Below, piece after piece: positions 30,612-51,620 of a DNA stretch of 64,000 nucleotides. Origin of the DNA: Trypanosoma brucei (lineage: Eukaryota); the NCBI GenBank assembly GCA_000002445.1, contig CP000071.1, positions 1,344,001 to 1,408,000 of the forward strand, in the 5' to 3' direction. How positions within the stretch are numbered: the stretch's first letter is position 1; each line of letters starts with the position of its first letter. Made by a program: the position numbers and the translations under genes. The notes under the pieces were generated by a model, which was given only the letters and a program-made list of their open reading frames with translations, was not told where the DNA came from and did no database searches.

Positions 30612-31526
30612 TTATTCTGTGTGCGTCTGCAGCGGCTCCATGGCAGACCTTCCTTCTGGGGTTGCGTGCGGGTCAACTGCTTTTCCAAACAATTCATCCG
30701 CTTCCTCAACTATACTGATAGGGGTGAGCCCTCGCAAAATTTCGCGCGCCTCGTTTGAGCAGTAGCAAAGATTCCTAATGACGAACGTCGCCCACTCACC
30801 CATGCCTGGATTTTCCAAATCAATGCGTGTGGCTCCGAGGATGGCAGTGAGAAGGCGGGTGTCACCTAAAACTGCGGAGCAGACCTCCTTATTCTCGTAA
30901 GTCAGATTGGCTACAAGCCGGACATGTTCCCTCCTGAAACCCTCTAGAAAACATGTTATCTCATGATCACGCGAAATGGTTAGCGCATCCGTTATATATT
31001 CCAGTACTTGTGATCCCAAGCAATATGTCTGGAGCCTTCTGAGGAGTCGTCGATGACTTAACAGTGTAAGATTGAGCACCTCAACAGCAGAGTGTGACAG
31101 GGTCGCTCCCATGTCTAACCATGCCTCAGAGCCGTCACTAAGCTCCGCAACGCTGCTTTCTCGTTGAAGCCCACCGCTCTCAGCATCTCCTTCAGCATTT
31201 GTAGCTCCGCCTACCACAGGGTCCTCCGTATTCGTAGTGCCGGGTGCAATAAACCCCTTTGTTCGGTGCAGTACATGACGCGCAACGTGAAGACTAAGCT
31301 TTATCATACGGAACAGGACATGTTGCAGGTGGAGTACCTCTTCCCCGGGCTCGCGCCCCGCATCAAACGCTGCCACATCGACCGCATGCTCCAGTTTGAA
31401 TGCAAAGGAGAAGTCCTTCAGTTTAACGTCCGTTTCGCACAGCGTCAGCAATTTGTCCACTTTGTTGTCTATTTCCCCCAGAGCCCTTGTGTCCAAATCC
31501 CTTATAGAACCCTCGTGATCAGTCAT
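30612..31526 (-). CDS. Ataxin-10-domain (Atx10homo_assoc / Ctr86-like) protein, ~304 aa.
   Basis: Track ORF begins with TTG at 31685 and runs through a pyrimidine tract; first ATG at 31526 (MTDHEGSIRDLD). The C-terminal WATFVIRNLCYCSNEAREILRGL resembles the conserved ataxin-10 homology motif (...VIRNLC..N..NQ..I). Confidence 0.45.
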   Translation of the reverse strand: MTDHEGSIRDLDTRALGEIDNKVDKLLTLCETDVKLKDFSFAFKLEHAVDVAAFDAGREPGEEVLHLQHVLFRMIKLSLHVARHVLHRTKGFIAPGTTNTEDPVVGGATNAEGDAESGGLQRESSVAELSDGSEAWLDMGATLSHSAVEVLNLTLLSHRRLLRRLQTYCLGSQVLEYITDALTISRDHEITCFLEGFRREHVRLVANLTYENKEVCSAVLGDTRLLTAILGATRIDLENPGMGEWATFVIRNLCYCSNEAREILRGLTPISIVEEADELFGKAVDPHATPEGRSAMEPLQTHTE

Positions 31527-32572
31527 TTGCCCTTCTCGTCGATATACACTCACCAGAAGGCCCCTCAAACAATGTTTCCTCTCTTCACATACATAAAAAT
31601 AGCAGTAAGCAACAGAAAAGGGGCAAAGAAAACAAAAAAAAAAAATATATATATATATAATAAATAAATGAAAACGCCGGATCAAAGTGTAAGAAATGTC
31701 TCCCTATCCTCAGCCGCTCCCGAACGAATGGGAACGCAGATCCACGCGACATTCCGTACAACGAAACAGTGGAAAGGAAAAACAAAGTAAAATTTGGGCG
31801 ATGGCGCACTCAACAGAGGAAACCAGTGGGTCGCATGAACAGACACCCGCACTCACAGGAAGAAAAGTCCCTTGAATAGTAAATATAACAATAATAACCA
31901 GAAACCTGGCAAGCCTCTTCAACCCGAGTACAAAGGCACCCCCTCCTCTGCCTTCAGTTACCACTCGGAGACACCCGCATAAACACAAAAACGCATCGCG
32001 CAGACGCGTAAAGTCATCCACAGCACTGAACGTGGTTTTCTTTTGCTCCTGCTCTCGTTGGCATCGCACAAAATAGAGGGAGTTAACTTTCCCTCTTTCC
32101 ACGATCAGCAAGGTGCACAACCTGAAAGTAAAAACGCGCACCGTGATGGATAGGTGTGCTTCCCCCGGGACTACGGAGGACACCACCTTTGAGTTAACGA
32201 GTAGGCGCAACGATAAGAAAGCCCCCTTCCGCTACAAAAAAAAAAAGAGCAACTTCGGCTGGTACACACCCGATACCCCATACGCCCACACGAAGAAAAC
32301 AGACGACACCCTCAAGGGAAGAAAACATTCCACGATTCCTCGAGCTAATTGAACCCAACATACCATTCGGGGAGTAAACATACCACTCGTATACGATATG
32401 AAGAGGGGGGAAAGCACAAACAGTGAGTCGGTTCTACGCCCCAGTATGTGCACGCCCCACGTCGTGCACAAATCAACCTCTCCCTCCAACGTGTTCATCT
32501 GGGGACTGGTTGCCACACCTTGTTAAGCGCCCTTACGCATAGCAGCACCAAATAAATAATGTAAGCACGCAC

Positions 32573-32947: not shown

Positions 32948-35900
32948 GCTGCTCCCAGTGAAAATGTGAGTAAGAACAAAAAAAAACGAAGTAAATTGAC
33001 GACGACATAAGCAACAGCGACTGTCTTCTGTTAAAATGGAAGAGAAAAGTGGCACCGCGGGAAAAGCAGAGTACATAAAAGCAAAAGTGAGGTGAGTGGA
33101 ACAGAAACGCAACGGAGGGAAGAGGACCCTTAGCGGAACGATGCTGACATAGTGTTCACAGGTGCGGCCACACATAACGGGACCCGTGAGGAGCCCGCAG
33201 CACCTATAAAGACAAAGATGCTCAGTTTGCATCTGGAGTGCGTCACTTCGCCGGCCCGCCTTTCCCACTAGAGGGAAAGAAGAATTCGTAACCAGACATC
33301 GCCTTTCTCCAAGCGCGCTTTGCGCAATGGATCAACGAAACTCTCGGTGACGTGCGTATCCCTTGTGCTCCTTGCTGCCTCTTGGCGCGTTCCAGACTGC
33401 TCACATCAATACGATACGGGTGAAATAACCTCCGAGAAAACCGCATGACCACTCGTGGTAACCCACACGCCCAACTTCCCGCAATCCCGCAAAGATGCTC
33501 GCGGTGAGCACACAACAGCGGCACAACTTATCATCAGCGCCACACAATGCGTGGTGCGTGGAGGGTAAAACGGGGAAAATACGAAGAAAGGAAATGTGTG
33601 TTGGGCAATTGGAAACAAAATAGAGGCAAACAAACGGATTATTCACAACAAATCTCCCAGGAGACGACAGAGCAAAGCAAAACGAACATCACATGTACTC
33701 CGCGAAGCCTTGATGTCTTCACATAATGAGTAAGCAAAAATGATAACAATGATTGACTTCCATTAGCACGGCCCGTGACATCGCGAACTTAACAGACAGT
33801 TACCAAAAGTGTGCGTAACAATAGAGACCAACTGCTGTCTTCTCTGCTCTTTTTCTCTTGTGAAGAAAAAAAGGAGGCGGCTAATTGTAATAATACCATC
33901 GAAGAAGGGATACCCAACTCAAATGCTTCCACGATGTGTTTGTGCGTGTGTGGAAATTTACTGGACACGCCACTTAGGAAACACTGCAAAACAGCAAGTA
34001 CTACATATGACACAGCAACTAAAGCAACGACATTGAGAAGGGGAAGATAAGGAACAAACAGAAAGAAAGTTAGCAGAGAAAAAATAGAAGTGTCAGTGCG
34101 TGTGTGGGGAAATAAACAATAATCTATCTCACACAACTAGCACGAGACGCAGCAAGTAGGCTGGAAAACGCTTTAGAAATGAGGTGGATAATTTTCCTTA
34201 GAAAAATAATAAAGAAACACCACCACAAGGCGCGATATTACCATTTATGTCGATTTTGGGCGCACTCAGGGGTGTTTGCTACCGTACCCGCAACATTGTT
34301 ATCCATGAGCCACACGAAAGAAGAAAATAGGAACCATCCCAGTTAACTTGCTCCATCTATATATAAATATTTTTTTTAATCGCATTTTTTTTACCTTTAC
34401 GTTTCCTCCTTATCTCCGCTTCCACACTCTTATCAACCAACTCCTTTTCTTCCACTCAACTCACACACACACACACCCCATCCCCTTCCTTATACACCTT
34501 TCTTATTTTTGATCGTTGCAGTTGGCCGTTGCAGGTTCACTAACTTCTTCAACCATCGAGCCGCAAACAAATATCGGTGATAACACCTGAAAACTCACAA
34601 ATTACCCATATGAACCCCATCGGAGCGACACCGCTAAAAGACGACCCAAAAAAGAAGAAAAGGCGGAAGACGCAGCAAGCGGGAATGGGAAAGAGATTCG
34701 AGGTAACAAATAAGACAACGAAAGAAAAAAAAAAGGAAACTCACGCACTCACTACAGATGAAGTGGACCCCTGCATTTACGTTCAACGAACCTGGAAAGT
34801 GGCAAATAAAAAGAAGAATACGGCACCACACGACATATCGGCAGCCTCATTAAATCCATTCATTCATTCAATTATGAACCGCACACACACACACATAAAA
34901 GGAAGAAAACTAGGGGGGACACACCTAACAATCAGAGTTTGCCACGCACTCAACCAAGCTCCACAGCGTTATCACCGCAGCACCCGATAAGAAATCGGAG
35001 CGCACGCAAGCGTCGACAGAAACCCAAAAAAAGGGTGAATAGAAGAAAAGGGAAGGTTAAGAGATCAAAAACTGAAAACCAATAGGCGGGTCACTCTCCG
35101 CAGAGGTACTCTAAAGATGATGCGCGTAAAAATGTGGCGCAAACATCACACAGATACACTAAGCAGCGGGGAATCAAGATAAATAAACAAAACAAAAGAA
35201 ACGTTTTCTTTTTCCTTTTTAAAATATCCATTAGTATAACAGGCTCCACCCAGAGTCCCTCACCCATCCATTTCCTCATCCAAACTTCCTCCCTCCTCTG
35301 GTCACTTTAATTCTTCTAACAGTTGTTAGTGGTGTCATGGCGCCCCACCGAACGTTCCCTCATCCTCCCAGTGCCAACAAAAAGAGCACGTAAATGCAAA
35401 AGCAACTGGAGAAGAGGGCAAAGGAGCAACGGAGAGGAACATTTGCAACAGTAGTCAAAACCGGGCGGTTTCAGCGTGCGCCAACGGCAATAGACAACTG
35501 ATATTGCAAGTCATCCAGGACAGCACCTAGCACGCAAGCAGAGTGGAATATATTTGTATAAACTTTCGGATAATGGAACAAAAACTACAACGCAACACAA
35601 AACGATACCCAATACACAAGCACGCACGCACAAAAACAAACAAACACATATATATATAAATATATAAATATATAAATATATAAGACAACAACTACACCAA
35701 CCAAAAAATCATATAAACAGACACTCAAATATATCTTCCTCACAGTCTGTTACGTGTCCCACAAACGACGCCCACAAATAACTAAAACCTGCACAATATA
35801 AACCGACAAGCTACTTATTCCGACAACAAAAAGGCAGACACAAAACAAAAAAGAGTTAAAAAACAAAATACAACAAAAACACGAGGCATTACACATAAAA

Positions 35901-36122
35901 ATAACACCCCTACCTACAACACATAAAAAAGAGACGAGAAGGATACCACTTAAATCAAGACACTACCTACCATTCAGCAAAAAAAAAATCTCAACACAGC
36001 TCAAGTTTGTGAAGAAAAAAAAACACACTAATCACAACTACAAAATAAAAAAATCTAACGAAACGAAAAGAACAATGTAAATATATAGCCTATCAAAAAA
36101 ATTAAAAAATGGCCAATGTTGA

Positions 36123-37499
36123 TTACACAGCCACATTGTAGATTGAGGCAGCCGTACCAAACACCACAGCGATCACTCCCGATATAAGGAGGAGGTACGT
36201 ACACACGTAATTTACCACACCCACCTGAGAAATGCCCCAGTTACCACAGTACATCCGGTACAATGCGGGAATGCAGAAACCAAGGACACCACCGCAGAAA
36301 CTTCCCAAAAGACCAAATACGGTATTCAGGTCGGGAATGAAGAGGCCAAGGAGCAGAGCGCATAGAGCCATGCAACCGCAAAACAGGCAGTTCTTCCATG
36401 TTTCAAGTGTGTTCAAATCCCACCCAATGATGTAATAGCAGCAATCACGGGCTGGTTGCATGCATAGTGAAAACCCAACACAGATCTTCAGCAACATGCC
36501 CGCAAACGCAATTGCCATCATCACGTCACCCTTCACGTCATAAATCTCAAAGACAGTTTCTACAGATTTGTTCCCAACATCCGTATAACCGAAGAAACCC
36601 GCAATGATGTACACCACACAACACATACTCATGGAATACGTTGTGTGGAGTGTCATGCGCCTTGCGCTCGGTTTGCGCATCTCCGAGTAAATGGAAAAAC
36701 AGTTCATATGGCACAGGTATGAAAACATGAAGATTGACAATCCCTCAATCGCCCTGTTCCCAGATTTAAACATCTCAACATCCTCGGGAAGTTTCCCATC
36801 CTTTAATCCATTTTTCGCGGAGTGCACAACAATGCAGATGACAAAATAAAAAACGAATAGCACAGCGATAGCGGAAGCGTAACGTAGTGAGTTGATTTCC
36901 TTGGGTAACGAGAGTGAAAACATTCCAACAAACCATATGATAGACGTGATCACGCGATTGCCCGTCTTTCCCTGAAAGAACTCCAATGTAGTGCACCCAG
37001 AAGCAACAGAGCCGACAAGGTAACCGGTAGCAATTACATAACTCACGCACGTCCCAAAGGTGAACAACCACGAGACCGATATAGTGAAGTAATCCCACCC
37101 GGGTCCAAAAAGGTTCCTCGAGAGATCCGTGTATGAGTTGTACCCTGTCATTTCTACTGCCTGCATCATCAGCCCAACGGAGTATATAGTCAACACAGTT
37201 ACAGTAATTAGAATGAGGATTGATGGGATCACACCACTCATCTGAAAAGCGATAGCGAGACTTATGACTCCAGCCCCCAATGTGGCACTCCCAAGGTTAA
37301 ACGTTGTCGAAAGGGCACCACCATGGGGAATGATTGCATTTATACATTGCATGAATTTGGAGTCTGTTGTCGGAGTGTCACCATTCTTGTGATGACTTTT
37401 CTCGTCTGCCGCTGACATCGCGCCGTATCCCTCACCCTCATCGGTAACAACCTCCGTGTGGGCCTTTCCAGAGCCTAATGGTTCTGTAGGGCTCAGCAT
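36123..37499 (-). CDS. Amino-acid transporter, AAAP/Aa_trans family (458 aa), array copy 1, variant A. The ORF track extends it to 532 aa via an in-frame upstream ORF.
   Basis: Polytopic membrane protein with an N-terminal acidic cytosolic tail then ~11 hydrophobic helices (ALSTTFNLGSATLGAGVISLAIAFQMSGVIPSILILITVTVLTIYSVGLMMQ...), typical of trypanosomatid AAT permeases. ATG at 37499-37497 matches the start of copies 2-5. From remembered synteny it is possibly part of the T. brucei chr8 AAT5-type locus. Confidence 0.85.
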   Translation of the reverse strand: MLSPTEPLGSGKAHTEVVTDEGEGYGAMSAADEKSHHKNGDTPTTDSKFMQCINAIIPHGGALSTTFNLGSATLGAGVISLAIAFQMSGVIPSILILITVTVLTIYSVGLMMQAVEMTGYNSYTDLSRNLFGPGWDYFTISVSWLFTFGTCVSYVIATGYLVGSVASGCTTLEFFQGKTGNRVITSIIWFVGMFSLSLPKEINSLRYASAIAVLFVFYFVICIVVHSAKNGLKDGKLPEDVEMFKSGNRAIEGLSIFMFSYLCHMNCFSIYSEMRKPSARRMTLHTTYSMSMCCVVYIIAGFFGYTDVGNKSVETVFEIYDVKGDVMMAIAFAGMLLKICVGFSLCMQPARDCCYYIIGWDLNTLETWKNCLFCGCMALCALLLGLFIPDLNTVFGLLGSFCGGVLGFCIPALYRMYCGNWGISQVGVVNYVCTYLLLISGVIAVVFGTAASIYNVAV

Positions 37500-37521
37500 A
37501 TTTAAGAGGTGGGTTTGCTGC

Positions 37522-37533
37522 GTGTGTACGTGT

Positions 37534-37564
<31 letters not shown>
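37522..37564. repeat. Imperfect (GT)n / (CA)n-on-coding-strand microsatellite in the 5' leader of AAT copy 1. It is 14 bp longer than the equivalent tract in units 2-5 (e.g. 40517-40547).
   Basis: Copy 1 reads gcgtgtgtacgtgtgtgcgtgtgcgtgtgtgtgtgtgtgtgtgtgctgc, whereas other units read gcgtgtgtacgtttgtgtgtgtgtgtgtgctgc. Confidence 0.9.
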
Positions 37565-37585
37565 CTGCTTGATAGCTTGATGACT

Positions 37586-37610
37586 GAAAAGGGAAAGAAA
37601 AGAAGCGAGC
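37586..37610 (-). promoter_or_regulatory. Candidate polypyrimidine tract / trans-splicing signal upstream of AAT copy 1. It repeats once per unit (e.g. 40569-40593). A stronger alternative tract lies at ~37895-37965.
   Basis: Plus strand gaaaagggaaagaaaagaagcgagc reads on the coding (minus) strand as gctcgcttcttttctttcccttttc, followed downstream by several AG dinucleotides ~60-90 nt before the ATG. Which tract is used cannot be decided from sequence alone. Confidence 0.3.
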
Positions 37611-39119
37611 TAATTCGTACAACGGAAGTAAAGACTGCCAAACACATGAATACACAAGTACCAAGAGTTCTTGCACACCCAGACAAGAATCTACTAAACT
37701 CACGGGCATAGCTACTTGCATATCGAAAAAAGCACCACGTTATTTGAAGGGGCATTCAACTCATGGCGACAAAGGAAGACACAAGAAGGTGGTTTCTACG
37801 TGCACCAGACAAGTGTCAAACATGACGCACAAATCGCAGCATCATCAGAGAATGAAACACAACGTGTGTCACACACTGCTTCTGCTTACCCCGACAGAAA
37901 ACAAAAGCGGATAACAAATACAACAAAAAAGGAAGGGAACTAAACAAAAATAAAGGAGCACATTGGAGCGACACGAACGCTGGAGTAACGTATTGTTGGC
38001 TTGGCGATTGATAAAACGCGTAACCAACCCTTCACTTAACCCTGTGGGAACATGTTGTACAAAGGTAGAACATCTTCCAGAGTACGTGTTAGGTTACACG
38101 TGACACCAACTCCATCCAGCATTCAACATTCATTCGTGTGGCAGACAGAAGTTGATACACACATGTTTTCTGTGAGGAATAGAAACATGAGTATATATAG
38201 ATAATGCTTTACGCCACGGCTTCGCAATGGAAAACAAAATAACAAATGAGAAAGCATCCTTCCTTGGCCCTCCCCTCTACCTGCGAACCCAAAAACAGGG
38301 AACTGCCTGATGGAGACATAGCGCAAAGTAAAAAATAAAAATCGTAACAAAAAGGGAGAAACACTCCAGTAGCGGCCCACGAAGATGTAGTGCAACACAA
38401 GGAAGCCACTTTGTGTCACACAATGCTGAGGAAAGAGATATACGCTAAAAGTTCTTTTTAAAAGTTCTAAAAAATAAAATATATAGATATATATATGCCT
38501 CCGCTAAACCAACAAAATAATAATCAAGAATATTTTCCCATTTCGTCTTATTTTTTTTTTTCTGTCTCATAGTTATGCATCACTCACAGCACCTGCCGCC
38601 ACCATCCCTACCGTAAATAAACACGAGGAATTAACCTCTCCGCCACAGGGATTTTGTTAAGAGGAAGGAGCCACTTTACGCAGGTCAGAGAAAACAAGGT
38701 ATGAATCCATAAATACATAACTCTGTATGATAGAGGTGGGCACGCCGTTGCAAAGTGGGCATTAGCTCCTCGTTAACACGGAAACAAACTTATTAAAAAA
38801 GAAAACGTTAACGGTGTAAGCAAATTTTCCCCGCTTACACAAACATATTCACCCAACACTGAACACAGTAAAAAGAAGAAAAGAAGAGGCACCTCAAATA
38901 AATATGCTTATATACCTATACGTAACACCTAACAGTTGCATTTTGTCTACTCTTACACCACACTGAAGGTCATGCAACTGCTTATCATGCATGACACAAA
39001 CACATGGAAAAAACAACACAGTAGAAAAAAATTTAAAAATTACCATCACACGACAGAGTTTGCCTGATTATTGCCGTCACTTGCTGCATGCTCCCACTCT
39101 AACAAAGGGCCAATGTTGA

Positions 39120-40496
39120 TTACACAGCCACATTGTAGATTGAGGCAGCCGTACCAAACACCACAGCGATCACTCCCGATATAAGGAGGAGGTACGTACA
39201 CACGTAATTTACCACACCCACCTGAGAAATGCCCCAGTTACCACAGTACATCCGGTACAATGCGGGAATGCAGAAACCAAGGACACCACCGCAGAAACTT
39301 CCCAAAAGACCAAATACGGTATTCAGGTCGGGAATGAAGAGGCCAAGGAGCAGAGCGCATAGAGCCATGCAACCGCAAAACAGGCAGTTCTTCCATGTTT
39401 CAAGTGTGTTCAAATCCCACCCAATGATGTAATAGCAGCAATCACGGGCTGGTTGCATGCATAGTGAAAACCCAACACAGATCTTCAGCAACATGCCCGC
39501 AAACGCAATTGCCATCATCACGTCACCCTTCACGTCATAAATCTCAAAGACAGTTTCTACGGATTTGTTCCCAACATCCGTATAACCGAAGAAACCCGCA
39601 ATGATGTACACCACACAACACATACTCATGGAATACGTTGTGTGGAGTGTCATGCGCCTTGCGCTCGGTTTGCGCATCTCCGAGTAAATGGAAAAACAGT
39701 TCATATGGCACAGGTATGAAAACATGAAGATTGACAATCCCTCAATCGCCCTGTTCCCAGATTTAAACATCTCAACATCCTCGGGAAGTTTCCCATCCTT
39801 TAATCCATTTTTCGCGGAGTGCACAACAATGCAGATGACAAAATAAAAAACGAATAGCACAGCGATAGCGGAAGCGTAACGTAGTGAGTTGATTTCCTTG
39901 GGTAACGAGAGTGAAAACATTCCAACAAACCATATGATAGACGTGATCACGCGATTGCCCGTCTTTCCCTGAAAGAACTCCAATGCAGAGGACCCAGATA
40001 GCACAGAGTCCACAAGGTAACCGGTAGCAATTACATAACTCACGCACGTCCCAAAGGTGAACAACCACGAGACCGATATAGTGAAGTAATCCCACCCGGG
40101 TCCAAAAAGGTTCCTCGAGAGATCCGCATATGAGTTGTACCCTGTCATTTCTACTGCCTGCATCATCAGCCCAACGGAGTATATAGTCAACACAGTTACA
40201 GTAATTAGAATGAGGATTGATGGAATCACACCACTCATCTGAAAAGCGATAGCGAGACTTATGACTCCAGCCCCCAATGTGGCACTCCCAAGGTTAAACG
40301 TTGTCGAAAGGGCACCACCATGGGGAATGATTGCATTTATACATTGCATGAATTTGGAGTCTGTTGTCAGAGTGTTACCATTCTTGTGATGACTTTTCTC
40401 GTCTGCCGCTGACATCGCGCCGTATCCCTCACCCTCATCGGTAACAACCTCCGTGTGGGCCTTTCCAGAGCCCAATGCTTCTGTAGGGCTCAGCAT
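39120..40496 (-). CDS. Amino-acid transporter, AAAP family (458 aa), array copy 2, variant B (A7, N41, L43, A124, DSVLSGSSA patch).
   Basis: ATG verified at 40496. Protein identical to copy 4. Confidence 0.9.
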   Translation of the reverse strand: MLSPTEALGSGKAHTEVVTDEGEGYGAMSAADEKSHHKNGNTLTTDSKFMQCINAIIPHGGALSTTFNLGSATLGAGVISLAIAFQMSGVIPSILILITVTVLTIYSVGLMMQAVEMTGYNSYADLSRNLFGPGWDYFTISVSWLFTFGTCVSYVIATGYLVDSVLSGSSALEFFQGKTGNRVITSIIWFVGMFSLSLPKEINSLRYASAIAVLFVFYFVICIVVHSAKNGLKDGKLPEDVEMFKSGNRAIEGLSIFMFSYLCHMNCFSIYSEMRKPSARRMTLHTTYSMSMCCVVYIIAGFFGYTDVGNKSVETVFEIYDVKGDVMMAIAFAGMLLKICVGFSLCMQPARDCCYYIIGWDLNTLETWKNCLFCGCMALCALLLGLFIPDLNTVFGLLGSFCGGVLGFCIPALYRMYCGNWGISQVGVVNYVCTYLLLISGVIAVVFGTAASIYNVAV

Positions 40497-42102
40497 ATTT
40501 AAGAGGTGGGTTTGCTGCGTGTGTACGTTTGTGTGTGTGTGTGTGTGCTGCTTGATAGCTTGATGACTGAAAAGGGAAAGAAAAGAAGCGAGCTAATTCG
40601 TACAACGGAAGTAAAGACTGCCAAACACATGAATACACAAGTACCAAGAGTTCTTGCACACCCAGACAAGAATCTACTAAACTCACGGGCATAGCTACTT
40701 GCATATCGAAAAAAGCACCACGTTATTTGAAGGGGCATTCAACTCATGGCGACAAAGGAAGACACAAGAAGGTGGTTTCTACGTGCACCAGACAAGTGTC
40801 AAACATGACGCACAAATCGCAGCATCATCAGAGAATGAAACACAACGTGTGTCACACACTGCTTCTGCTTACCCCGACAGAAAACAAAAGCGGATAACAA
40901 ATACAACAAAAAAGGAAGGGAACTAAACAAAAATAAAGGAGCACATTGGAGCGACACGAACGCTGGAGTAACGTATTGTTGGCTTGGCGATTGATAAAAC
41001 GCGTAACCAACCCTTCACTTAACCCTGTGGGAACATGTTGTACAAAGGTAGAACATCTTCCAGAGTACGTGTTAGGTTACACGTGACACCAACTCCATCC
41101 AGCAATCAACATTCATTCGTGTGGCAGAGAGAAGTTGATACACACATGTTTTCTGTGAGGAATAGAAACATGAGTATATATAGATAATGCTTTACGCCAC
41201 GGCTTCGCAATGGAAAACAAAATAACAAATGAGAAAGCATCCTTCCTTGGCCCTCCCCTCTACCTGCGAACCCAAAAACAGGGAACTGCCTGATGGAGAC
41301 ATAGCGCAAAGTAAAAAATAAAAATCGTAACAGAAAGGGAGAAACACTCCAGTAGCGGCCCACGAAGATGTAGTGCAACACAAGGAAGCCACTTTGTGTC
41401 ACACAATGCTGAGGAAAGAGATATACGCTAAAAGTTCTTTTTAAAAGTTCTAAAAAATAAAATATATAGATATATATATGCCTCCGCTAAACCAACAAAA
41501 TAATAATAAAGAATATTTTCCCATTTCGTCTTATTTTTTTTTTTCTGTCTCATAGTTATGCATCACTCACAGCACCTGCCGCCACCATCCCTACCGTAAA
41601 TAAACACGAGGAATTAACCTCTCCGCCACAGGGATTTTGTTAAGAGGAAGGAGCCACTTTACGCAGGTCAGAGAAAACAAGGTATGAATCCATAAATACA
41701 TAACTCTGTATGATAGAGGTGGGCACGCCGTTGCAAAGTGGGCATTAGCTCCTCGTTAACACGGAAACAAACTTATTAAAAAAGAAAACGTTAACGGTGT
41801 AAGCAAATTTTCCCCGCTTACACAAACATATTCACCCAACACTGAACACAGTAAAAAGAAGAAAAGAAGAGGCACCTCAAATAAATATGCTTATATACCT
41901 ATACGTAACACCTAACAGTTGCATTTTGTCTACTCTTACACCACACTAAAGGTCATGCAACTGCTTATCATGCATGACACAAACACATGGAAAAAACAAC
42001 ACAGTAGAAAAAAATTTAAAAATTACCATCACACGACAGAGTTTGCCTGATTATTGCCGTCACTTGCTGCATGCTCCCACTCTAACAAAGGGCCAATGTT
42101 GA

Positions 42103-43479
42103 TTACACAGCCACATTGTAGATTGAGGCAGCCGTACCAAACACCACAGCGATCACTCCCGATATAAGGAGGAGGTACGTACACACGTAATTTACCACAC
42201 CCACCTGAGAAATGCCCCAGTTACCACAGTACATCCGGTACAATGCGGGAATGCAGAAACCAAGGACACCACCGCAGAAACTTCCCAAAAGACCAAATAC
42301 GGTATTCAGGTCGGGAATGAAGAGGCCAAGGAGCAGAGCGCATAGAGCCATGCTACCGCAAAACAGGCAGTTCTTCCATGTTTCAAGTGTGTTCAAATCC
42401 CACCCAATGATGTAATAGCAGCAATCACGGGCTGGTTGCATGCATAGTGAAAACCCAACACAGATCTTCAGCAACATGCCCGCAAACGCAATTGCCATCA
42501 TCACGTCACCCTTCACGTCATAAATCTCAAAGACAGTTTCTACAGATTTGTTCCCAACATCCGTATAACCGAAGAAACCCGCAATGATGTACACCACACA
42601 ACACATACTCATGGAATACGTTGTGTGGAGTGTCATGCGCCTTGCGCTCGGTTTGCGCATCTCCGAGTAAATGGAAAAACAGTTCATATGGCACAGGTAT
42701 GAAAACATGAAGATTGACAATCCCTCAATCGCCCTGTTCCCAGATTTAAACATCTCAACATCCTCGGGAAGTTTCCCATCCTTTAATCCATTTTTCGCGG
42801 AGTGCACAACAATGCAGATGACAAAATAAAAAACGAATAGCACAGCGATAGCGGAAGCGTAACGTAGTGAGTTGATTTCCTTGGGTAACGAGAGTGAAAA
42901 CATTCCAACAAACCATATGATAGACGTGATCACGCGATTGCCCGTCTTTCCCTGAAAGAACTCCAATGCAGAGGACCCAGATAGCACAGAGTCCACAAGG
43001 TAACCGGTAGCAATTACATAACTCACGCACGTCCCAAAGGTGAACAACCACGAGACCGATATAGTGAAGTAATCCCACCCGGGTCCAAAAAGGTTCCTCG
43101 AGAGATCCGCATATGAGTTGTACCCTGTCATTTCTACTGCCTGCATCATCAGCCCAACGGAGTATATAGTCAACACAGTTACAGTAATTAGAATGAGGAT
43201 TGATGGGATCACACCACTCATCTGAAAAGCGATAGCGAGACTTATGACTCCAGCCCCCAATGTGGCACTCCCAAGGTTAAACGTTGTCGAAAGGGCACCA
43301 CCATGGGGAATGATTGCATTTATACATTGCATGAATTTGGAGTCTGTTGTCGGAGTGTCACCATTCTTGTGATGACTTTTCTCGTCTGCCGCTGACATCG
43401 CGCCGTATCCCTCACCCTCATCGGTAACAACCTCCGTGTGGGCCTTTCCAGAGCCTAATGGTTCTGTAGGGCTCAGCAT
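42103..43479 (-). CDS. Amino-acid transporter, AAAP family (458 aa), array copy 3. It is a chimera: variant-A N-terminus (P7, D41, P43) with variant-B middle (A124, DSVLSGSSA), plus a unique C408S-type change (CLFCGSMALC).
   Basis: Direct comparison of the five translated copies. Confidence 0.9.
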   Translation of the reverse strand: MLSPTEPLGSGKAHTEVVTDEGEGYGAMSAADEKSHHKNGDTPTTDSKFMQCINAIIPHGGALSTTFNLGSATLGAGVISLAIAFQMSGVIPSILILITVTVLTIYSVGLMMQAVEMTGYNSYADLSRNLFGPGWDYFTISVSWLFTFGTCVSYVIATGYLVDSVLSGSSALEFFQGKTGNRVITSIIWFVGMFSLSLPKEINSLRYASAIAVLFVFYFVICIVVHSAKNGLKDGKLPEDVEMFKSGNRAIEGLSIFMFSYLCHMNCFSIYSEMRKPSARRMTLHTTYSMSMCCVVYIIAGFFGYTDVGNKSVETVFEIYDVKGDVMMAIAFAGMLLKICVGFSLCMQPARDCCYYIIGWDLNTLETWKNCLFCGSMALCALLLGLFIPDLNTVFGLLGSFCGGVLGFCIPALYRMYCGNWGISQVGVVNYVCTYLLLISGVIAVVFGTAASIYNVAV

Positions 43480-45085
43480 ATTTAAGAGGTGGGTTTGCTG
43501 CGTGTGTACGTTTGTGTGTGTGTGTGTGTGCTGCTTGATAGCTTGATGACTGAAAAGGGAAAGAAAAGAAGCGAGCTAATTCGTACAACGGAAGTAAAGA
43601 CTGCCAAACACATGAATACACAAGTACCAAGAGTTCTTGCACACCCAGACAAGAATCTACTAAACTCACGGGCATAGCTACTTGCATATCGAAAAAAGCA
43701 CCACGTTATTTGAAGGGGCATTCAACTCATGGCGACAAAGGAAGACACAAGAAGGTGGTTTCTACGTGCACCAGACAAGTGTCAAACATGACGCACAAAT
43801 CGCAGCATCATCAGAGAATGAAACACAACGTGTGTCACACACTGCTTCTGCTTACCCCGACAGAAAACAAAAGCGGATAACAAATACAACAAAAAAGGAA
43901 GGGAACTAAACAAAAATAAAGGAGCACATTGGAGCGACACGAACGCTGGAGTAACGTATTGTTGGCTTGGCGATTGATAAAACGCGTAACCAACCCTTCA
44001 CTTAACCCTGTGGGAACATGTTGTACAAAGGTAGAACATCTTCCAGAGTACGTGTTAGGTTACACGTGACACCAACTCCATCCAGCATTCAACATTCATT
44101 CGTGTGGCAGACAGAAGTTGATACACACATGTTTTCTGTGAGGAATAGAAACATGAGTATATATAGATAATGCTTTACGCCACGGCTTCGCAATGGAAAA
44201 CAAAATAACAAATGAGAAAGCATCCTTCCTTGGCCCTCCCCTCTACCTGCGAACCCAAAAACAGGGAACTGCCTGATGGAGACATAGCGCAAAGTAAAAA
44301 ATAAAAATCGTAACAAAAAGGGAGAAACACTCCAGTAGCGGCCCACGAAGATGTAGTGCAACACAAGGAAGCCACTTTGTGTCACACAATGCTGAGGAAA
44401 GAGATATACGCTAAAAGTTCTTTTTAAAAGTTCTAAAAAATAAAATATATAGATATATATATGCCTCCGCTAAACCAACAAAATAATAATCAAGAATATT
44501 TTCCCATTTCGTCTTATTTTTTTTTTTCTGTCTCATAGTTATGCATCACTCACAGCACCTGCCGCCACCATCCCTACCGTAAATAAACACGAGGAATTAA
44601 CCTCTCCGCCACAGGGATTTTGTTAAGAGGAAGGAGCCACTTTACGCAGGTCAGAGAAAACAAGGTATGAATCCATAAATACATAACTCTGTATGATAGA
44701 GGTGGGCACGCCGTTGCAAAGTGGGCATTAGCTCCTCGTTAACACGGAAACAAACTTATTAAAAAAGAAAACGTTAACGGTGTAAGCAAATTTTCCCCGC
44801 TTACACAAACATATTCACCCAACACTGAACACAGTAAAAAGAAGAAAAGAAGAGGCACCTCAAATAAATATGCTTATATACCTATACGTAACACCTAACA
44901 GTTGCATTTTGTCTACTCTTACACCACACTGAAGGTCATGCAACTGCTTATCATGCATGACACAAACACATGGAAAAAACAACACAGTAGAAAAAAATTT
45001 AAAAATTACCATCACACGACAGAGTTTGCCTGATTATTGCCGTCACTTGCTGCATGCTCCCACTCTAACAAAGGGCCAATGTTGA

Positions 45086-46462
45086 TTACACAGCCACATT
45101 GTAGATTGAGGCAGCCGTACCAAACACCACAGCGATCACTCCCGATATAAGGAGGAGGTACGTACACACGTAATTTACCACACCCACCTGAGAAATGCCC
45201 CAGTTACCACAGTACATCCGGTACAATGCGGGAATGCAGAAACCAAGGACACCACCGCAGAAACTTCCCAAAAGACCAAATACGGTATTCAGGTCGGGAA
45301 TGAAGAGGCCAAGGAGCAGAGCGCATAGAGCCATGCAACCGCAAAACAGGCAGTTCTTCCATGTTTCAAGTGTGTTCAAATCCCACCCAATGATGTAATA
45401 GCAGCAATCACGGGCTGGTTGCATGCATAGTGAAAACCCAACACAGATCTTCAGCAACATGCCCGCAAACGCAATTGCCATCATCACGTCACCCTTCACG
45501 TCATAAATCTCAAAGACAGTTTCTACGGATTTGTTCCCAACATCCGTATAACCGAAGAAACCCGCAATGATGTACACCACACAACACATACTCATGGAAT
45601 ACGTTGTGTGGAGTGTCATGCGCCTTGCGCTCGGTTTGCGCATCTCCGAGTAAATGGAAAAACAGTTCATATGGCACAGGTATGAAAACATGAAGATTGA
45701 CAATCCCTCAATCGCCCTGTTCCCAGATTTAAACATCTCAACATCCTCGGGAAGTTTCCCATCCTTTAATCCATTTTTCGCGGAGTGCACAACAATGCAG
45801 ATGACAAAATAAAAAACGAATAGCACAGCGATAGCGGAAGCGTAACGTAGTGAGTTGATTTCCTTGGGTAACGAGAGTGAAAACATTCCAACAAACCATA
45901 TGATAGACGTGATCACGCGATTGCCCGTCTTTCCCTGAAAGAACTCCAATGCAGAGGACCCAGATAGCACAGAGTCCACAAGGTAACCGGTAGCAATTAC
46001 ATAACTCACGCACGTCCCAAAGGTGAACAACCACGAGACCGATATAGTGAAGTAATCCCACCCGGGTCCAAAAAGGTTCCTCGAGAGATCCGCATATGAG
46101 TTGTACCCTGTCATTTCTACTGCCTGCATCATCAGCCCAACGGAGTATATAGTCAACACAGTTACAGTAATTAGAATGAGGATTGATGGAATCACACCAC
46201 TCATCTGAAAAGCGATAGCGAGACTTATGACTCCAGCCCCCAATGTGGCACTCCCAAGGTTAAACGTTGTCGAAAGGGCACCACCATGGGGAATGATTGC
46301 ATTTATACATTGCATGAATTTGGAGTCTGTTGTCAGAGTGTTACCATTCTTGTGATGACTTTTCTCGTCTGCCGCTGACATCGCGCCGTATCCCTCACCC
46401 TCATCGGTAACAACCTCCGTGTGGGCCTTTCCAGAGCCCAATGCTTCTGTAGGGCTCAGCAT
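45086..46462 (-). CDS. Amino-acid transporter, AAAP family (458 aa), array copy 4, variant B.
   Basis: Identical protein to copy 2. Confidence 0.9.
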   Translation of the reverse strand: MLSPTEALGSGKAHTEVVTDEGEGYGAMSAADEKSHHKNGNTLTTDSKFMQCINAIIPHGGALSTTFNLGSATLGAGVISLAIAFQMSGVIPSILILITVTVLTIYSVGLMMQAVEMTGYNSYADLSRNLFGPGWDYFTISVSWLFTFGTCVSYVIATGYLVDSVLSGSSALEFFQGKTGNRVITSIIWFVGMFSLSLPKEINSLRYASAIAVLFVFYFVICIVVHSAKNGLKDGKLPEDVEMFKSGNRAIEGLSIFMFSYLCHMNCFSIYSEMRKPSARRMTLHTTYSMSMCCVVYIIAGFFGYTDVGNKSVETVFEIYDVKGDVMMAIAFAGMLLKICVGFSLCMQPARDCCYYIIGWDLNTLETWKNCLFCGCMALCALLLGLFIPDLNTVFGLLGSFCGGVLGFCIPALYRMYCGNWGISQVGVVNYVCTYLLLISGVIAVVFGTAASIYNVAV

Positions 46463-48067: not shown

Positions 48068-49444
48068 TTACACAGCCACATTGTAGATTGAGGCAGCCGT
48101 ACCAAACACCACAGCGATCACTCCCGATATAAGGAGGAGGTACGTACACACGTAATTTACCACACCCACCTGAGAAATGCCCCAGTTACCACAGTACATC
48201 CGGTACAATGCGGGAATGCAGAAACCAAGGACACCACCGCAGAAACTTCCCAAAAGACCAAATACGGTATTCAGGTCGGGAATGAAGAGGCCAAGGAGCA
48301 GAGCGCATAGAGCCATGCAACCGCAAAACAGGCAGTTCTTCCATGTTTCAAGTGTGTTCAAATCCCACCCAATGATGTAATAGCAGCAATCACGGGCTGG
48401 TTGCATGCATAGTGAAAACCCAACACAGATCTTCAGCAACATGCCCGCAAACGCAATTGCCATCATCACGTCACCCTTCACGTCATAAATCTCAAAGACA
48501 GTTTCTACAGATTTGTTCCCAACATCCGTATAACCGAAGAAACCCGCAATGATGTACACCACACAACACATACTCATGGAATACGTTGTGTGGAGTGTCA
48601 TGCGCCTTGCGCTCGGTTTGCGCATCTCCGAGTAAATGGAAAAACAGTTCATATGGCACAGGTATGAAAACATGAAGATTGACAATCCCTCAATCGCCCT
48701 GTTCCCAGATTTAAACATCTCAACATCCTCGGGAAGTTTCCCATCCTTTAATCCATTTTTCGCGGAGTGCACAACAATGCAGATGACAAAATAAAAAACG
48801 AATAGCACAGCGATAGCGGAAGCGTAACGTAGTGAGTTGATTTCCTTGGGTAACGAGAGTGAAAACATTCCAACAAACCATATGATAGACGTGATCACGC
48901 GATTGCCCGTCTTTCCCTGAAAGAACTCCAATGTAGTGCACCCAGAAGCAACAGAGCCGACAAGGTAACCGGTAGCAATTACATAACTCACGCACGTCCC
49001 AAAGGTGAACAACCACGAGACCGATATAGTGAAGTAATCCCACCCGGGTCCAAAAAGGTTCCTCGAGAGATCCGTGTATGAGTTGTACCCTGTCATTTCT
49101 ACTGCCTGCATCATCAGCCCAACGGAGTATATAGTCAACACAGTTACAGTAATTAGAATGAGGATTGATGGGATCACACCACTCATCTGAAAAGCGATAG
49201 CGAGACTTATGACTCCAGCCCCCAATGTGGCACTCCCAAGGTTAAACGTTGTCGAAAGGGCACCACCATGGGGAATGATTGCATTTATACATTGCATGAA
49301 TTTGGAGTCTGTTGTCGGAGTGTCACCATTCTTGTGATGACTTTTCTCGTCTGCCGCTGACATCGCGCCGTATCCCTCACCCTCATCGGTAACAACCTCC
49401 GTGTGGGCCTTTCCAGAGCCTAATGGTTCTGTAGGGCTCAGCAT
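48068..49444 (-). CDS. Amino-acid transporter, AAAP family (458 aa), array copy 5, variant A (identical protein to copy 1).
   Basis: Direct comparison. The GSVASGCTT patch and T124 are shared with copy 1. Confidence 0.9.
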   Translation of the reverse strand: MLSPTEPLGSGKAHTEVVTDEGEGYGAMSAADEKSHHKNGDTPTTDSKFMQCINAIIPHGGALSTTFNLGSATLGAGVISLAIAFQMSGVIPSILILITVTVLTIYSVGLMMQAVEMTGYNSYTDLSRNLFGPGWDYFTISVSWLFTFGTCVSYVIATGYLVGSVASGCTTLEFFQGKTGNRVITSIIWFVGMFSLSLPKEINSLRYASAIAVLFVFYFVICIVVHSAKNGLKDGKLPEDVEMFKSGNRAIEGLSIFMFSYLCHMNCFSIYSEMRKPSARRMTLHTTYSMSMCCVVYIIAGFFGYTDVGNKSVETVFEIYDVKGDVMMAIAFAGMLLKICVGFSLCMQPARDCCYYIIGWDLNTLETWKNCLFCGCMALCALLLGLFIPDLNTVFGLLGSFCGGVLGFCIPALYRMYCGNWGISQVGVVNYVCTYLLLISGVIAVVFGTAASIYNVAV

Positions 49445-51049: not shown

Positions 51050-51166
51050 TTACACAGCCACATTGTAGATTGAGGCAGCCGTACCAAACACCACAGCGAT
51101 CACTCCCGATATAAGGAGGAGGTACGTGCACACGTAATTTACCACACCCACCTGAGAAATGCCCCA
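51050..51166 (-). pseudogene. Truncated amino-acid transporter fragment: only the last ~38 codons plus the stop codon of a sixth array unit.
   Basis: 51044-51166 matches the 3' end of the AAT coding sequence (stop at 51050-51052) with one SNP (gtacgtGcacacg). Homology stops dead at 51166 and the sequence then switches to unrelated G/T-rich DNA. Confidence 0.85.
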
Positions 51167-51620
51167 TTTTTATATATACGTTGTGGTGTCCAGATGAATT
51201 GCTTTTCCTTCGATATATTTGTTGTTAGTACATTTTTAAATAGCTGTATTGTTGTTTCTGGTTTATTCTTTTTCTTCATTTTACTTTTTTTCTGTTCATT
51301 GTCTTTTTTTGTTTGTTGTTACGTGGATGTTTAATAGTCGATATGAGTTCGTATTCGTTAAATATATTTTTAGTGTTTCACTGCTGATTATTTTTATCTT
51401 TTTGTGTGTTGTTTTGTTTTCTGTGTATGGGTTTTTATTTACACATGCCGTTCATGGTGTTTTTTCCCGGTCCTTCTACCTATTTTTGGGACGAACACGA
51501 ATGTGTTAGGTGCTTTGAAGTGACGCCTCGGTTACTGATTTCCTCGTACATGCGTTGTAGAAGGGGTGTTGCTCGTTTTTCGTTTCGCTGGTTGTGAAGA
51601 AGTTGAGTTGGTGTAGTGAG
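51167..51620. other. Unique G/T-rich (A/C-poor on +) low-complexity segment immediately flanking the array breakpoint.
   Basis: Direct reading: long runs of t and g with few a/c (tttgttgttagtacatttttaaatagctgtattgttgtttctggtttattc...). Composition is the mirror of the A/C-rich flank at 35.5-36.1 kb on the other side of the array. Confidence 0.6.

What the first reader, a model, noticed from the sequence alone, without database searches (positions are those of the whole stretch)
36987..37013. Nine-codon hypervariable patch distinguishing transporter variants (GSVASGCTT vs DSVLSGSSA)
Within an otherwise almost invariant 1377-nt CDS, about 9 nucleotide differences cluster in ~36 nt, giving 5 amino-acid changes in residues 163-171 (copies 1/5 versus 2/3/4). 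The patch lies just after a predicted TM helix (…YVIATGYLV|GSVASGCTT|LEFFQGK). Such concentrated non-synonymous divergence suggests either an imported conversion tract from a more distant paralogue or diversifying selection on a loop that may influence substrate recognition. Equivalent positions in other units are 39984-40010, 42967-42993, 45950-45976 and 48932-48958.
Basis: partly seen in the sequence, partly recalled or inferred. Interest (0 to 1): 0.55.

Follow-up and report, generated by a model that had tools for sequence, protein, structure and literature searches.

The report
Two-version loop patch in arginine transporter
Five tandem copies of the Trypanosoma brucei arginine transporter gene TbAAT5 come in two versions that differ mainly in a 26-base patch at the outer end of the third membrane helix; the patch is real and non-random, but the differences are already tabulated in the literature and fit the known mosaic evolution of this gene array.

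Summary
The window is T. brucei TREU927 chromosome 8, the TbAAT5 arginine-transporter array (Tb927.8.4700-4740, minus strand). Nine of the 18 variable CDS sites lie in nt 486-511. They give five amino-acid changes in residues 163-171, copies 1/5 against 2/3/4 (0 of 200,000 permutations cluster as tightly).

- **Polarity is reversed.** DSVLSGSSA is the ancestral-like version. GSVASGCTT is derived, and G163, A166 and C169 occur in none of 98 homologues.
- **Selection is not shown.** Synonymous and non-synonymous divergence are both about 30-fold or more above the rest of the gene (pS 0.32, pN 0.29, ratio 0.93).
- **No donor was found.**
- **The patch is dimorphic, not hypervariable.**

The two versions also occur in strain 427 and in T. 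equiperdum, which carries an intra-patch recombinant. They persist although flanking sites were homogenised across all copies within lineages.

AlphaFold places the patch at the outer end of TM3 and the start of extracellular loop 2, one of the most variable segments of the family.

Mathieu et al. 2017 tabulate these SNPs. They also report that the GSVASGCTT isoform fails to support yeast growth on lysine. The novelty is low.

The parts
36123..37499 (-). TbAAT5 copy 1 (Tb927.8.4700), 458-aa AAAP arginine transporter, A-type (GSVASGCTT). The annotated 532-aa form is only an upstream ORF extension through a (GT)n tract.
   Evidence: PF01490, E=1.5e-51; exact match to the XP_847301 core. CDS identical to copy 5.
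36987..37014 (-). Derived patch version in copy 1. Codons 163-171 are GSVASGCTT, plus the synonymous site nt 486 in codon 162.
37130..37131 (-). Adjacent doublet at nt 369/370 (Y123 synonymous, T124 versus A124). It is linked to the derived patch in TREU927 and 427 but not in T. equiperdum.
39120..40496 (-). TbAAT5 copy 2 (Tb927.8.4710), B-type: ancestral-like patch plus the N-terminal changes P7A, D41N and P43L. CDS identical to copy 4.
39984..40011 (-). Ancestral-like patch DSVLSGSSA in copy 2
42103..43479 (-). TbAAT5 copy 3 (Tb927.8.4720; its 427 counterpart is the characterised TbAAT5-3). It has the ancestral-like patch, ancestral-like N-terminus and a private C376S.
42967..42994 (-). Ancestral-like patch DSVLSGSSA in copy 3
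45086..46462 (-). TbAAT5 copy 4 (Tb927.8.4730), B-type, identical to copy 2
45950..45977 (-). Ancestral-like patch DSVLSGSSA in copy 4
48068..49444 (-). TbAAT5 copy 5 (Tb927.8.4740), A-type, CDS identical to copy 1
48932..48959 (-). Derived patch GSVASGCTT in copy 5
51050..51169 (-). Truncated sixth copy (pseudogene Tb927.8.4750). It is the last 120 nt of the CDS, 98% identical to the array. It marks the upstream array boundary and does not cover the patch.
   Evidence: PMC5207785
35523..36122 (-). Copy-1-specific 3' flank (distinct 3' UTR). It identifies the positional orthologues in T. equiperdum (derived patch) and T. b. gambiense (ancestral-like patch).
   Evidence: PMC5207785

Best explanation
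The patch is a two-state (dimorphic) divergence island inside the tandem TbAAT5 arginine-transporter array of Trypanosoma brucei.

**Shown.** The array evolves in concert, through gene conversion or unequal crossing-over. Almost everything is homogenised among copies, while short segments are shuffled as mosaics. One 26-nt segment has stayed in two versions:
- an ancestral-like one, DSVLSGSSA (copies 2-4);
- a derived, T. brucei-specific one, GSVASGCTT (copies 1 and 5).

The segment encodes the extracellular end of TM3 and the first residues of extracellular loop 2 of this 11-TM LeuT-fold AAAP permease. The derived version replaces two positions that are conserved in arginine-permease orthologues: an acidic residue at 163 and Leu166. 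It also introduces a loop cysteine.

**Inferred.** The dimorphism is older than the last homogenisation of its flanks. It is carried from copy to copy by short conversion tracts, some of which break inside it. It persists either because the two isoforms differ functionally or because its mismatch density hinders conversion across it. The most likely functional effect is a modest change in secondary substrate range at the outer vestibule (loss of low-affinity lysine uptake), not a change in arginine transport itself.

**Unresolved.** How the derived haplotype first arose is not known. It could be an old divergence, a clustered multi-nucleotide event, or a donor that has since been lost.
For: **Identity.** The proteins match XP_847301-847305 of TREU927 chromosome 8 exactly. 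Pfam Aa_trans gives E=1.5e-51. The AlphaFold model has pLDDT 89 and 11 TM helices, and its best Foldseek hits are LAX3, AUX1, SLC38A9 and AdiC.

**Clustering.** None of 200,000 permutations matched it.

**Both substitution classes are raised.** In the patch pS is 0.32 and pN 0.29. In the rest of the core (residues 58-458) pS is 0.011 and pN 0.001. Fisher tests give p=7e-4 for synonymous and 6e-9 for non-synonymous differences. This is the signature of an older or foreign segment, not of selection on new point mutations.

**Polarity.**
- The nine arginine-permease orthologues have E or K at 163 and an invariant L166.
- T. congolense reads ESVLSPSTA.
- None of the 98 homologues has G163, A166 or C169.

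**Persistence through concerted evolution.**
- Nt 6, 96, 183 and 618 are fixed in all five TREU927 copies, against all three T. equiperdum and all three T. b. gambiense copies. Strain 427 agrees with the latter at 6, 183 and 618.
- Both sides of the patch were therefore homogenised after the lineages split.
- Both patch versions nevertheless exist in TREU927, in 427 (PCR clones) and in T. equiperdum.

**Conversion reaches the patch.** The middle T. equiperdum copy is a hybrid, GSVLSGSSA, with a breakpoint between nt 488 and 495. The downstream T. equiperdum copy has the patch without the 369/370 doublet.

**Literature.**
- AAT5Tb shows concerted evolution, and 19-48 bp conversion tracts occur in other T. 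brucei AAT arrays (PMC1810246).
- The array has a significant PHI recombination signal (PMC2854126).

**Function.** The GSVASGCTT isoform of strain 427 complements yeast on Arg and His but not Lys. The DSVLSGSSA isoform complements on all three (PMC5207785).

**Local constraint.** Residues 163-171 rank 2nd of 392 nine-residue windows for variability across the family.
Against: - The functional difference in yeast is a growth phenotype only. It rests on isoforms that also differ at D32E and A124T, and the authors themselves did not pursue it.
- dN/dS of about 0.93 on nine changes cannot separate neutrality from selection.
- T. b. gambiense DAL972 carries only the ancestral-like version, even in the positional orthologue of copy 1, so the derived version is dispensable or has been lost there.
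- In the 427 database sequence one of the two derived-patch copies carries a 4-nt frameshift deletion. That hints at relaxed constraint, or at an assembly error.
- The 427 assembly may not be positionally independent of TREU927. This is my own recollection that it was reference-guided; only the PCR clones are independent evidence.
- Synonymous sites between T. brucei and T. congolense are saturated (pS 0.73), so the age of the patch cannot be dated.
- I could not obtain model coordinates to measure distances to the substrate site.
Confidence: 0.55

Rival explanations
1. Neutral relic. The derived patch is a functionally insignificant or slightly deleterious variant in a poorly constrained loop. 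It is tolerated because the array is redundant. It persists only by chance, or because 35% local mismatch blocks heteroduplex formation. No isoform specialisation is involved.
For: - dN/dS is about 0.93, which is indistinguishable from neutral.
- The segment is among the most variable in the family.
- The derived version is absent from the three T. b. gambiense DAL972 copies.
- One derived-patch copy in 427 is annotated with a frameshift.
- Both isoforms transport arginine.
Against: - The derived version changes positions that are conserved among the nine arginine-permease orthologues: E/K163 and the invariant L166.
- The dimorphism survives homogenisation of both flanks in at least two lineages.
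- A lysine-growth difference between the isoforms has been published.
- The excess of non-synonymous change is significant against the segment's long-term constraint if omega is 0.2 or less (p<=0.026).
Confidence: 0.28
2. Imported gene-conversion tract from a more distant paralogue. Here a short stretch of another AAT gene would have overwritten nt ~486-511 in one copy and then spread.
For: - Divergence is 35% over 26 nt, with both synonymous and non-synonymous changes and a transition:transversion count of 3:6 (read from the site list). That looks like foreign or very old sequence.
- Conversion tracts of 19-48 bp are documented in other T. brucei AAT arrays.
Against: - No match to the derived patch exists anywhere else in the 64-kb window at up to 3 mismatches.
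- Its best local similarity to the rest of the repeat unit is at chance level: 88/400 shuffles ungapped and 60/400 gapped.
- None of 98 trypanosomatid homologues shares more than 2 of the 5 diagnostic residues, and none has G163, A166 or C169.
- The only other named T. brucei paralogue returned is only 42% identical in protein and reads SPLLNQPST at the patch.
- Jackson 2007 found no ectopic conversion between AAT loci.
Confidence: 0.1
3. Diversifying (positive) selection acting on new point mutations in an exposed loop.
For: - There are five amino-acid changes in nine residues of an extracellular segment.
- There are more non-synonymous changes than the long-term constraint of the segment predicts.
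- A phenotype difference between the isoforms has been published.
Against: - dN/dS is 0.93, not above 1.
- Synonymous divergence is raised about 30-fold as well, which selection on amino acids does not explain.
- Only two haplotypes exist, not a series of alleles.
- Four of the nine changes (nt 495-498) can be read as one +1/-1 compensated frameshift, which reduces the number of independent events (sequences).
Confidence: 0.08
4. Assembly or sequencing artefact of a near-identical tandem array.
For: - The A-B-C-B-A symmetry of the five copies is unusual for a tandem array.
- The 3-kb repeats are more than 99% identical, which makes them hard to assemble.
Against: - The same two patch versions were amplified independently by PCR from strain 427.
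- Both are present in the T. equiperdum assembly GCA_003543875.1, together with a recombinant.
Confidence: 0.01

Closest known systems
TbAAT5 arginine transporters of T. brucei (Tb927.8.4700-4740; Mathieu et al. 2017, PMC5207785)
   Same: It is the same locus. The proteins are identical to the TREU927 entries. S1 Table of that paper lists every one of the nine patch SNPs and their amino-acid changes in strains 927 and 427. The paper reports isoform-dependent growth on lysine.
   Different: The paper does not comment on the clustering, polarity, structural position or evolutionary persistence of the differences. It characterised only the DSVLSGSSA isoform (TbAAT5-3) kinetically.
Concerted evolution and short-tract gene-conversion mosaics in T. 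brucei tandem arrays (Jackson 2007, PMC1810246; Jackson et al. 2010, PMC2854126)
   Same: AAT5Tb was shown to evolve in concert (Ks 0.0127). The array headed by Tb927.8.4740 gave a significant PHI recombination signal. Conversion tracts of 19-48 bp are documented in the sister arrays AAT4Tb and AAT7Tb. The mosaic copy 3 and the T. equiperdum hybrid fit this pattern.
   Different: No specific conversion event was reported for AAT5Tb. Here the notable feature is the reverse of conversion: a 26-nt island that has escaped homogenisation.
Divergence islands in concertedly evolving duplicates, kept by selection against gene conversion (Innan / Teshima-Innan models; the red/green opsin and RHD/RHCE examples, from general knowledge)
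   Same: Near-identity along the gene with a small block of high synonymous and non-synonymous divergence. The block is shared across lineages that have each homogenised the flanks.
   Different: Selection is not demonstrated here. The island is very small (26 nt), and the derived version is missing from one subspecies assembly.
Solved AAAP / LeuT-fold relatives: PAT1 (SLC36A1, 9v3t), SLC38A9 (6c08, 7kgv), AUX1/LAX3 (9lva, 9h63)
   Same: Same fold and TM order. The patch aligns with the end of TM3 and the start of EL2 of PAT1.
   Different: Sequence identity is only 13-16%. No solved structure of a trypanosomatid AAAP exists, and no role of this TM3/EL2 junction in selectivity was tested here.

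Membership tests
AAAP / Aa_trans (PF01490) amino-acid permeases | Match to the Pfam Aa_trans profile above the gathering score | tested here: met
   175.8 bits against a cut-off of 25.6, E=1.5e-51, covering residues 60-453
AAAP / Aa_trans (PF01490) amino-acid permeases | LeuT/APC fold with 11 transmembrane helices | tested here: met
   the AlphaFold model (pLDDT 89.2, pTM 0.87) has 11 long helices. Foldseek probability 1.00 to LAX3, AUX1, SLC38A9 and AdiC, with TM-scores 0.6-0.79.
TbAAT5 arginine transporter locus (T. brucei chr 8) | Sequence identity to Tb927.8.4700-4740 products and conserved neighbours | tested here: met
   exact matches to XP_847301-847305; the downstream Atx10-homology gene is shared with the T. 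equiperdum and T. vivax loci; the 120-nt pseudogene described in PMC5207785 is present.
TbAAT5 arginine transporter locus (T. brucei chr 8) | High-affinity, selective L-arginine transport | not testable with these tools
   Literature only. PMC5207785 gives Km 3.6 uM for the DSVLSGSSA isoform. The GSVASGCTT isoform supports yeast growth on Arg and His.
Gene-conversion tract imported from a paralogue | A donor sequence elsewhere that carries the tract | tested here: not met
   no donor in the window or repeat unit; none among 98 homologues; the pseudogene does not cover the patch. The whole T. brucei genome could not be searched.
Gene-conversion tract imported from a paralogue | Mosaic pattern: adjacent segments of one copy group with different copies | tested here: met
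   Copy 3 groups with copies 1/5 at nt 19-273 and 936, but with copies 2/4 at 369-511. The middle T. equiperdum copy switches type between nt 488 and 495.
Positively selected (diversifying) site cluster | dN/dS significantly above 1, with synonymous divergence not raised | tested here: not met
   the ratio is 0.93, and pS in the patch is 0.32 against 0.011 elsewhere.
Hypervariable region | Many distinct alleles at the segment among copies or strains | tested here: not met
   two haplotypes plus one recombinant among 11 copies from TREU927, T. equiperdum and T. b. gambiense. The same two are found in 427.
Divergence island maintained against concerted evolution | Flanks homogenised within lineages while the island stays dimorphic in more than one lineage | tested here: met
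   nt 6, 96, 183 and 618 are fixed across all TREU927 copies against all T. equiperdum and T. b. gambiense copies. The patch is dimorphic in TREU927 and T. equiperdum, and in 427 by PCR.
Divergence island maintained against concerted evolution | Demonstrated fitness or functional difference caused by the island itself | not testable with these tools
   There is only an isoform-level yeast phenotype, and those isoforms have two further differences outside the patch.

The most novel reading that the evidence does not exclude
The nine-codon TM3/EL2 junction is a genuine selectivity determinant of trypanosomatid cationic amino-acid permeases. On this reading T. brucei keeps two arginine-transporter isoforms by balancing selection against gene conversion: one that also admits lysine, and one that is stricter. 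The stricter one sits partly at the array position with its own 3' UTR (Tb927.8.4700), which could allow differential regulation.
Probability: 0.18. Interest if true: 0.5.

Novelty: already known. Interest (0 to 1): 0.22.

Why it matters
Arginine import through TbAAT5 is essential for bloodstream T. brucei (PMC5207785). If the patch alone accounts for the published lysine-growth difference, it would point to an outer-vestibule position that tunes substrate range in AAAP permeases. It would also give a small, clean example of a functional island resisting concerted evolution. As it stands, this is a documented isoform difference in a well-studied array whose mosaic evolution is already described. 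The practical value is limited to three things: correcting the polarity (GSVASGCTT is the derived form), showing that it is not evidence for positive selection, and defining a simple swap experiment.

Tried and rejected
1. **Local donor or template.** I searched both patch 30-mers with up to 3 mismatches and found only the expected five sites. A k-mer scan found the 10-mer TGCACTACAT, which covers three derived sites, in every intergenic spacer. A shuffle test showed the derived patch's best match to the rest of the unit is at chance level, 88/400 and 60/400, so I rejected it.
2. **Pseudogene Tb927.8.4750 as the relic of a divergent donor.** It is 98% identical to the array and covers only CDS nt 1258-1377. 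Rejected.
3. **Quasi-palindrome or hairpin-templated mutation.** DNA folds of both versions are no better than shuffles, z = -0.04 and -0.42. Rejected.
4. **Polarising synonymous sites with T. congolense.** Synonymous sites are saturated (pS 0.73), so this is uninformative. Only the amino-acid states were used.
6. **Fetching DNA of a T. brucei paralogue (P0029) and of the exact A-type protein from other assemblies.** Neither is on record.
7. **First attempt to align overlapping repeat units with MAFFT.** It mis-registered. I redid it with non-overlapping units.
9. **Model coordinates.** They are not exposed, so no distance from the patch to the substrate site could be measured.
Full report
**What the window is.** The region holds five tandem 1377-nt ORFs on the minus strand, with a repeat period of 2982-2997 nt. 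Their products match Pfam Aa_trans (E=1.5e-51). They are identical to the five 'amino acid transporter, putative' entries XP_847301-847305 of Trypanosoma brucei brucei TREU927 chromosome 8. This is the TbAAT5 array, Tb927.8.4700-4740. Its T. cruzi orthologues are annotated as arginine permease. Its strain-427 member TbAAT5-3 is a characterised, essential, high-affinity arginine transporter (PMC5207785). Copy 1 in the window (36123-37499) is Tb927.8.4700 and copy 5 (48068-49444) is Tb927.8.4740. The 120-nt pseudogene Tb927.8.4750 lies at 51050-51169.

**Check of the observation.** The five CDSs differ at 18 positions. Nine of these are nt 486, 488, 495-498, 506, 508 and 511, which map to window 36989-37014 in copy 1. 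They change residues 163, 166, 169, 170 and 171. Copies 1 and 5 read GSVASGCTT and copies 2, 3 and 4 read DSVLSGSSA. No random placement of 18 sites among 200,000 put nine in a 26-nt window; the maximum was seven. The doublet at nt 369/370 (T124A) follows the same 1/5 versus 2/3/4 split. Six other sites (19, 24, 121, 128, 273, 936) split copies 1/3/5 from 2/4, and nt 1126 is private to copy 3. Copies 1 and 5 are therefore identical, copies 2 and 4 are identical, and copy 3 is a mosaic relative to them.

**Kind of divergence.** By Nei-Gojobori counting the patch (codons 162-171) holds 3 synonymous and 6 non-synonymous differences. That gives pS 0.32, pN 0.29 and a ratio of 0.93. The rest of the conserved core has pS 0.011 and pN 0.001.
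- Both classes are strongly enriched in the patch (Fisher p=7e-4 and 6e-9).
- The 6:3 split fits neutrality (P=0.69).
- It exceeds what the long-term constraint of the segment would give if omega is 0.2 or less (P<=0.026).

The pattern is therefore not 'concentrated non-synonymous divergence'. It looks like a short block of much older, foreign or scrambled sequence. Six of the nine changes are transversions (counted from the site list). The four consecutive changes at 495-498 can also be read as a +1/-1 compensated frameshift: GT[T]GCT-TCT versus GT-GCT[A]TCT.

**Polarity.**
- T. congolense reads ESVLSPSTA.
- Eight other Trypanosoma orthologues have E or K at 163, P or S at 164, V165 and an invariant L166.
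- Across 98 trypanosomatid family members, none has G163, A166 or C169. At most 2 of the 5 diagnostic residues match the copy-1/5 version, whereas up to 4 match the copy-2/3/4 version.

DSVLSGSSA is therefore ancestral-like and GSVASGCTT is a T. brucei-specific derived state. Synonymous sites between T. brucei and T. congolense are saturated (pS 0.73), so they cannot be used for polarity or dating.

**Other genomes.** T. equiperdum (GCA_003543875.1) has three copies:
- The upstream copy carries DSVLSGSSA.
- The middle copy is a hybrid, GSVLSGSSA, that switches type between nt 488 and 495.
- The downstream copy carries GSVASGCTT but lacks the 369/370 doublet.

The downstream copy is the positional orthologue of copy 1, as its unique 3' flank is 583/589 identical. 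T. b. gambiense DAL972 has three copies, all DSVLSGSSA, including the positional orthologue of copy 1. The two T. vivax copies are identical in this segment. In strain 427 the same nine differences separate Tb427.08.4700/4740 from 4710/4720/4730, and both versions were recovered as independent PCR clones (PMC5207785 S1 Table). The dimorphism is therefore real and not an assembly artefact.

**Concerted evolution around the patch.** Nt 6, 96, 183 and 618 carry one state in all five TREU927 copies. They carry the other state in all three T. equiperdum and all three T. b. gambiense copies. Strain 427 agrees with the latter at 6, 183 and 618. Sites on both sides of the patch have thus been homogenised across both patch types since these lineages separated, yet the patch is still dimorphic in at least two lineages. 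This is the behaviour of a divergence island in a concertedly evolving array. It fits earlier work: AAT5Tb evolves in concert, short (19-48 bp) conversions occur in sister AAT arrays, and no ectopic conversion between AAT loci was seen (PMC1810246). The array headed by Tb927.8.4740 also shows a significant PHI recombination signal between T. b. brucei and T. b. gambiense (PMC2854126).

**Search for a donor or template.**
- Nothing else in the 64-kb window matches either patch version at up to 3 mismatches.
- A 10-mer shared between the derived patch and every intergenic spacer is at chance level in a shuffle test.
- The truncated sixth copy is 98% identical to the array and does not reach the patch.
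- Neither version forms a significant hairpin.

The complete T. brucei genome could not be searched with the tools available. A peptide search of the large protein set was uninformative.

**Position in the protein.** An AlphaFold model built from a 100-sequence alignment (pLDDT 89.2, pTM 0.87) has 11 TM helices. TM3 is helix 135-166, followed by a loop at 167-172, a short helix at 173-176 and TM4 at 178-196. Confidence around the patch is about 89-90. The model matches LAX3, AUX1, SLC38A9 and AdiC. A profile search aligns the patch with the TM3/EL2 junction of human PAT1.

With the cytosolic N-terminus usual for this family (my recollection of established AAAP knowledge; not taken from a tool result or from PMC5207785, which reports only the predicted number of transmembrane domains), residues 163-166 are the extracellular end of TM3 and 167-171 begin extracellular loop 2. 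The conserved mid-TM3 motif FGTCVxYVI lies about 2.5-3.5 helical turns deeper. The patch therefore sits at the outer vestibule and not in the primary binding site; this is an inference, since no coordinates were available. Residues 163-171 rank 2nd of 392 nine-residue windows for variability across the family, although positions 163 and 166 are conserved among arginine-permease orthologues.

**Function.** PMC5207785 reports that Tb427.08.4720 (DSVLSGSSA) supports yeast growth on arginine, histidine and lysine. Tb427.08.4740 (GSVASGCTT, plus D32E and A124T) supports growth on arginine and histidine only. The authors did not follow this up. The patch holds 5 of the 7 differences, including loss of the acidic residue at 163, which makes it the leading candidate. 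That attribution is my inference.

**Verdict.** The best explanation is a two-state island at the TM3/EL2 junction that persists and is shuffled within a concertedly evolving arginine-transporter array. GSVASGCTT is the derived form and plausibly narrows secondary substrate range. Positive selection is not shown, and import from a paralogue is unsupported. The sequence differences, the isoform phenotype and the mosaic nature of the array are all already in the literature, so novelty is low. What this analysis adds is the polarity, the joint rise in dS and dN, the trans-lineage persistence with an intra-patch recombinant, and the structural placement.

Noticed in passing
window 36123-49444 (five CDSs and spacers): The array has a symmetric A-B-C-B-A pattern. 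The copy 1 CDS equals copy 5, and the copy 2 CDS equals copy 4. Copy 2 and copy 4 also share their downstream spacer haplotype. This is unusual for a simple tandem expansion. It may reflect a two-unit duplication, or an assembly choice in TREU927.
   Followed up: partly
window 37500-37721 and 37522-37564: A (GT)n/(CA)n microsatellite lies just upstream of the copy 1 start codon, and this spacer is 14 nt longer than the others. The annotated 532-aa form of Tb927.8.4700 is an ORF extension through this repeat (translated ...HTHTHTRTRTH...). The T. b. gambiense entries of 524-538 aa are extended in the same way.
   Followed up: partly
window 35523-36122: The copy 1 3' flank departs from the array spacer within about 13-60 nt of the stop codon, starting with a 40-nt deletion. 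It is conserved at 98-99% in the terminal copies of T. equiperdum and T. b. gambiense. Tb927.8.4700 therefore has its own 3' UTR, as noted in PMC5207785, while carrying the same protein as copy 5.
   Followed up: partly
window 51050-51169: A truncated sixth copy (the last 120 nt of the CDS, with 2 mismatches) marks the upstream boundary of the array. The spacer between it and copy 5 has three private substitutions.
   Followed up: yes
window 38385-38394, 41368-41377, 44351-44360, 47334-47343, 50316-50325 (minus strand): The 10-mer TGCACTACAT covers the three derived sites 506, 508 and 511 of the patch, and it recurs once in every intergenic spacer. A shuffle test puts this at chance level.
   Followed up: yes
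CDS nt 495-498 (window 37002-37005 in copy 1): Four consecutive substitutions (GTT GCT versus GTG CTA) are equally well explained by a one-base insertion plus a one-base deletion four bases apart. That would be a compensated frameshift converting Leu166 to Ala.
   Followed up: no
CDS nt 19/24, 121/128 and 369/370 in all copies (e.g. window 37476-37481, 37372-37379, 37130-37131): Outside the patch, the variable sites also tend to come in close pairs 1-7 nt apart. This suggests either remnants of short conversion tracts or multi-nucleotide mutation events throughout the array.
   Followed up: no
CDS nt 635-643 and 662-670 of every copy (e.g. window 36857-36865): The ancestral-like patch shares two 9-mers (CTGTGCTAT and TCTGCATTG) with a stretch 140-160 nt downstream in the same gene. 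The gapped local score was exceeded by only 3 of 400 shuffles. This is probably chance after multiple testing, and it was not explored.
   Followed up: no
L002 7022-8398 (T. equiperdum middle copy): This is a natural intra-patch recombinant (GSVLSGSSA) that also carries a private V428L. The downstream T. equiperdum copy carries Y454F. Together they form a ready-made allelic series for functional tests.
   Followed up: partly
window 30612-31685 (minus strand): An ORF with an Atx10homo_assoc (PF09759) domain lies downstream of the array. The same neighbour follows the array in T. equiperdum and T. vivax, which confirms conserved synteny.
   Followed up: partly
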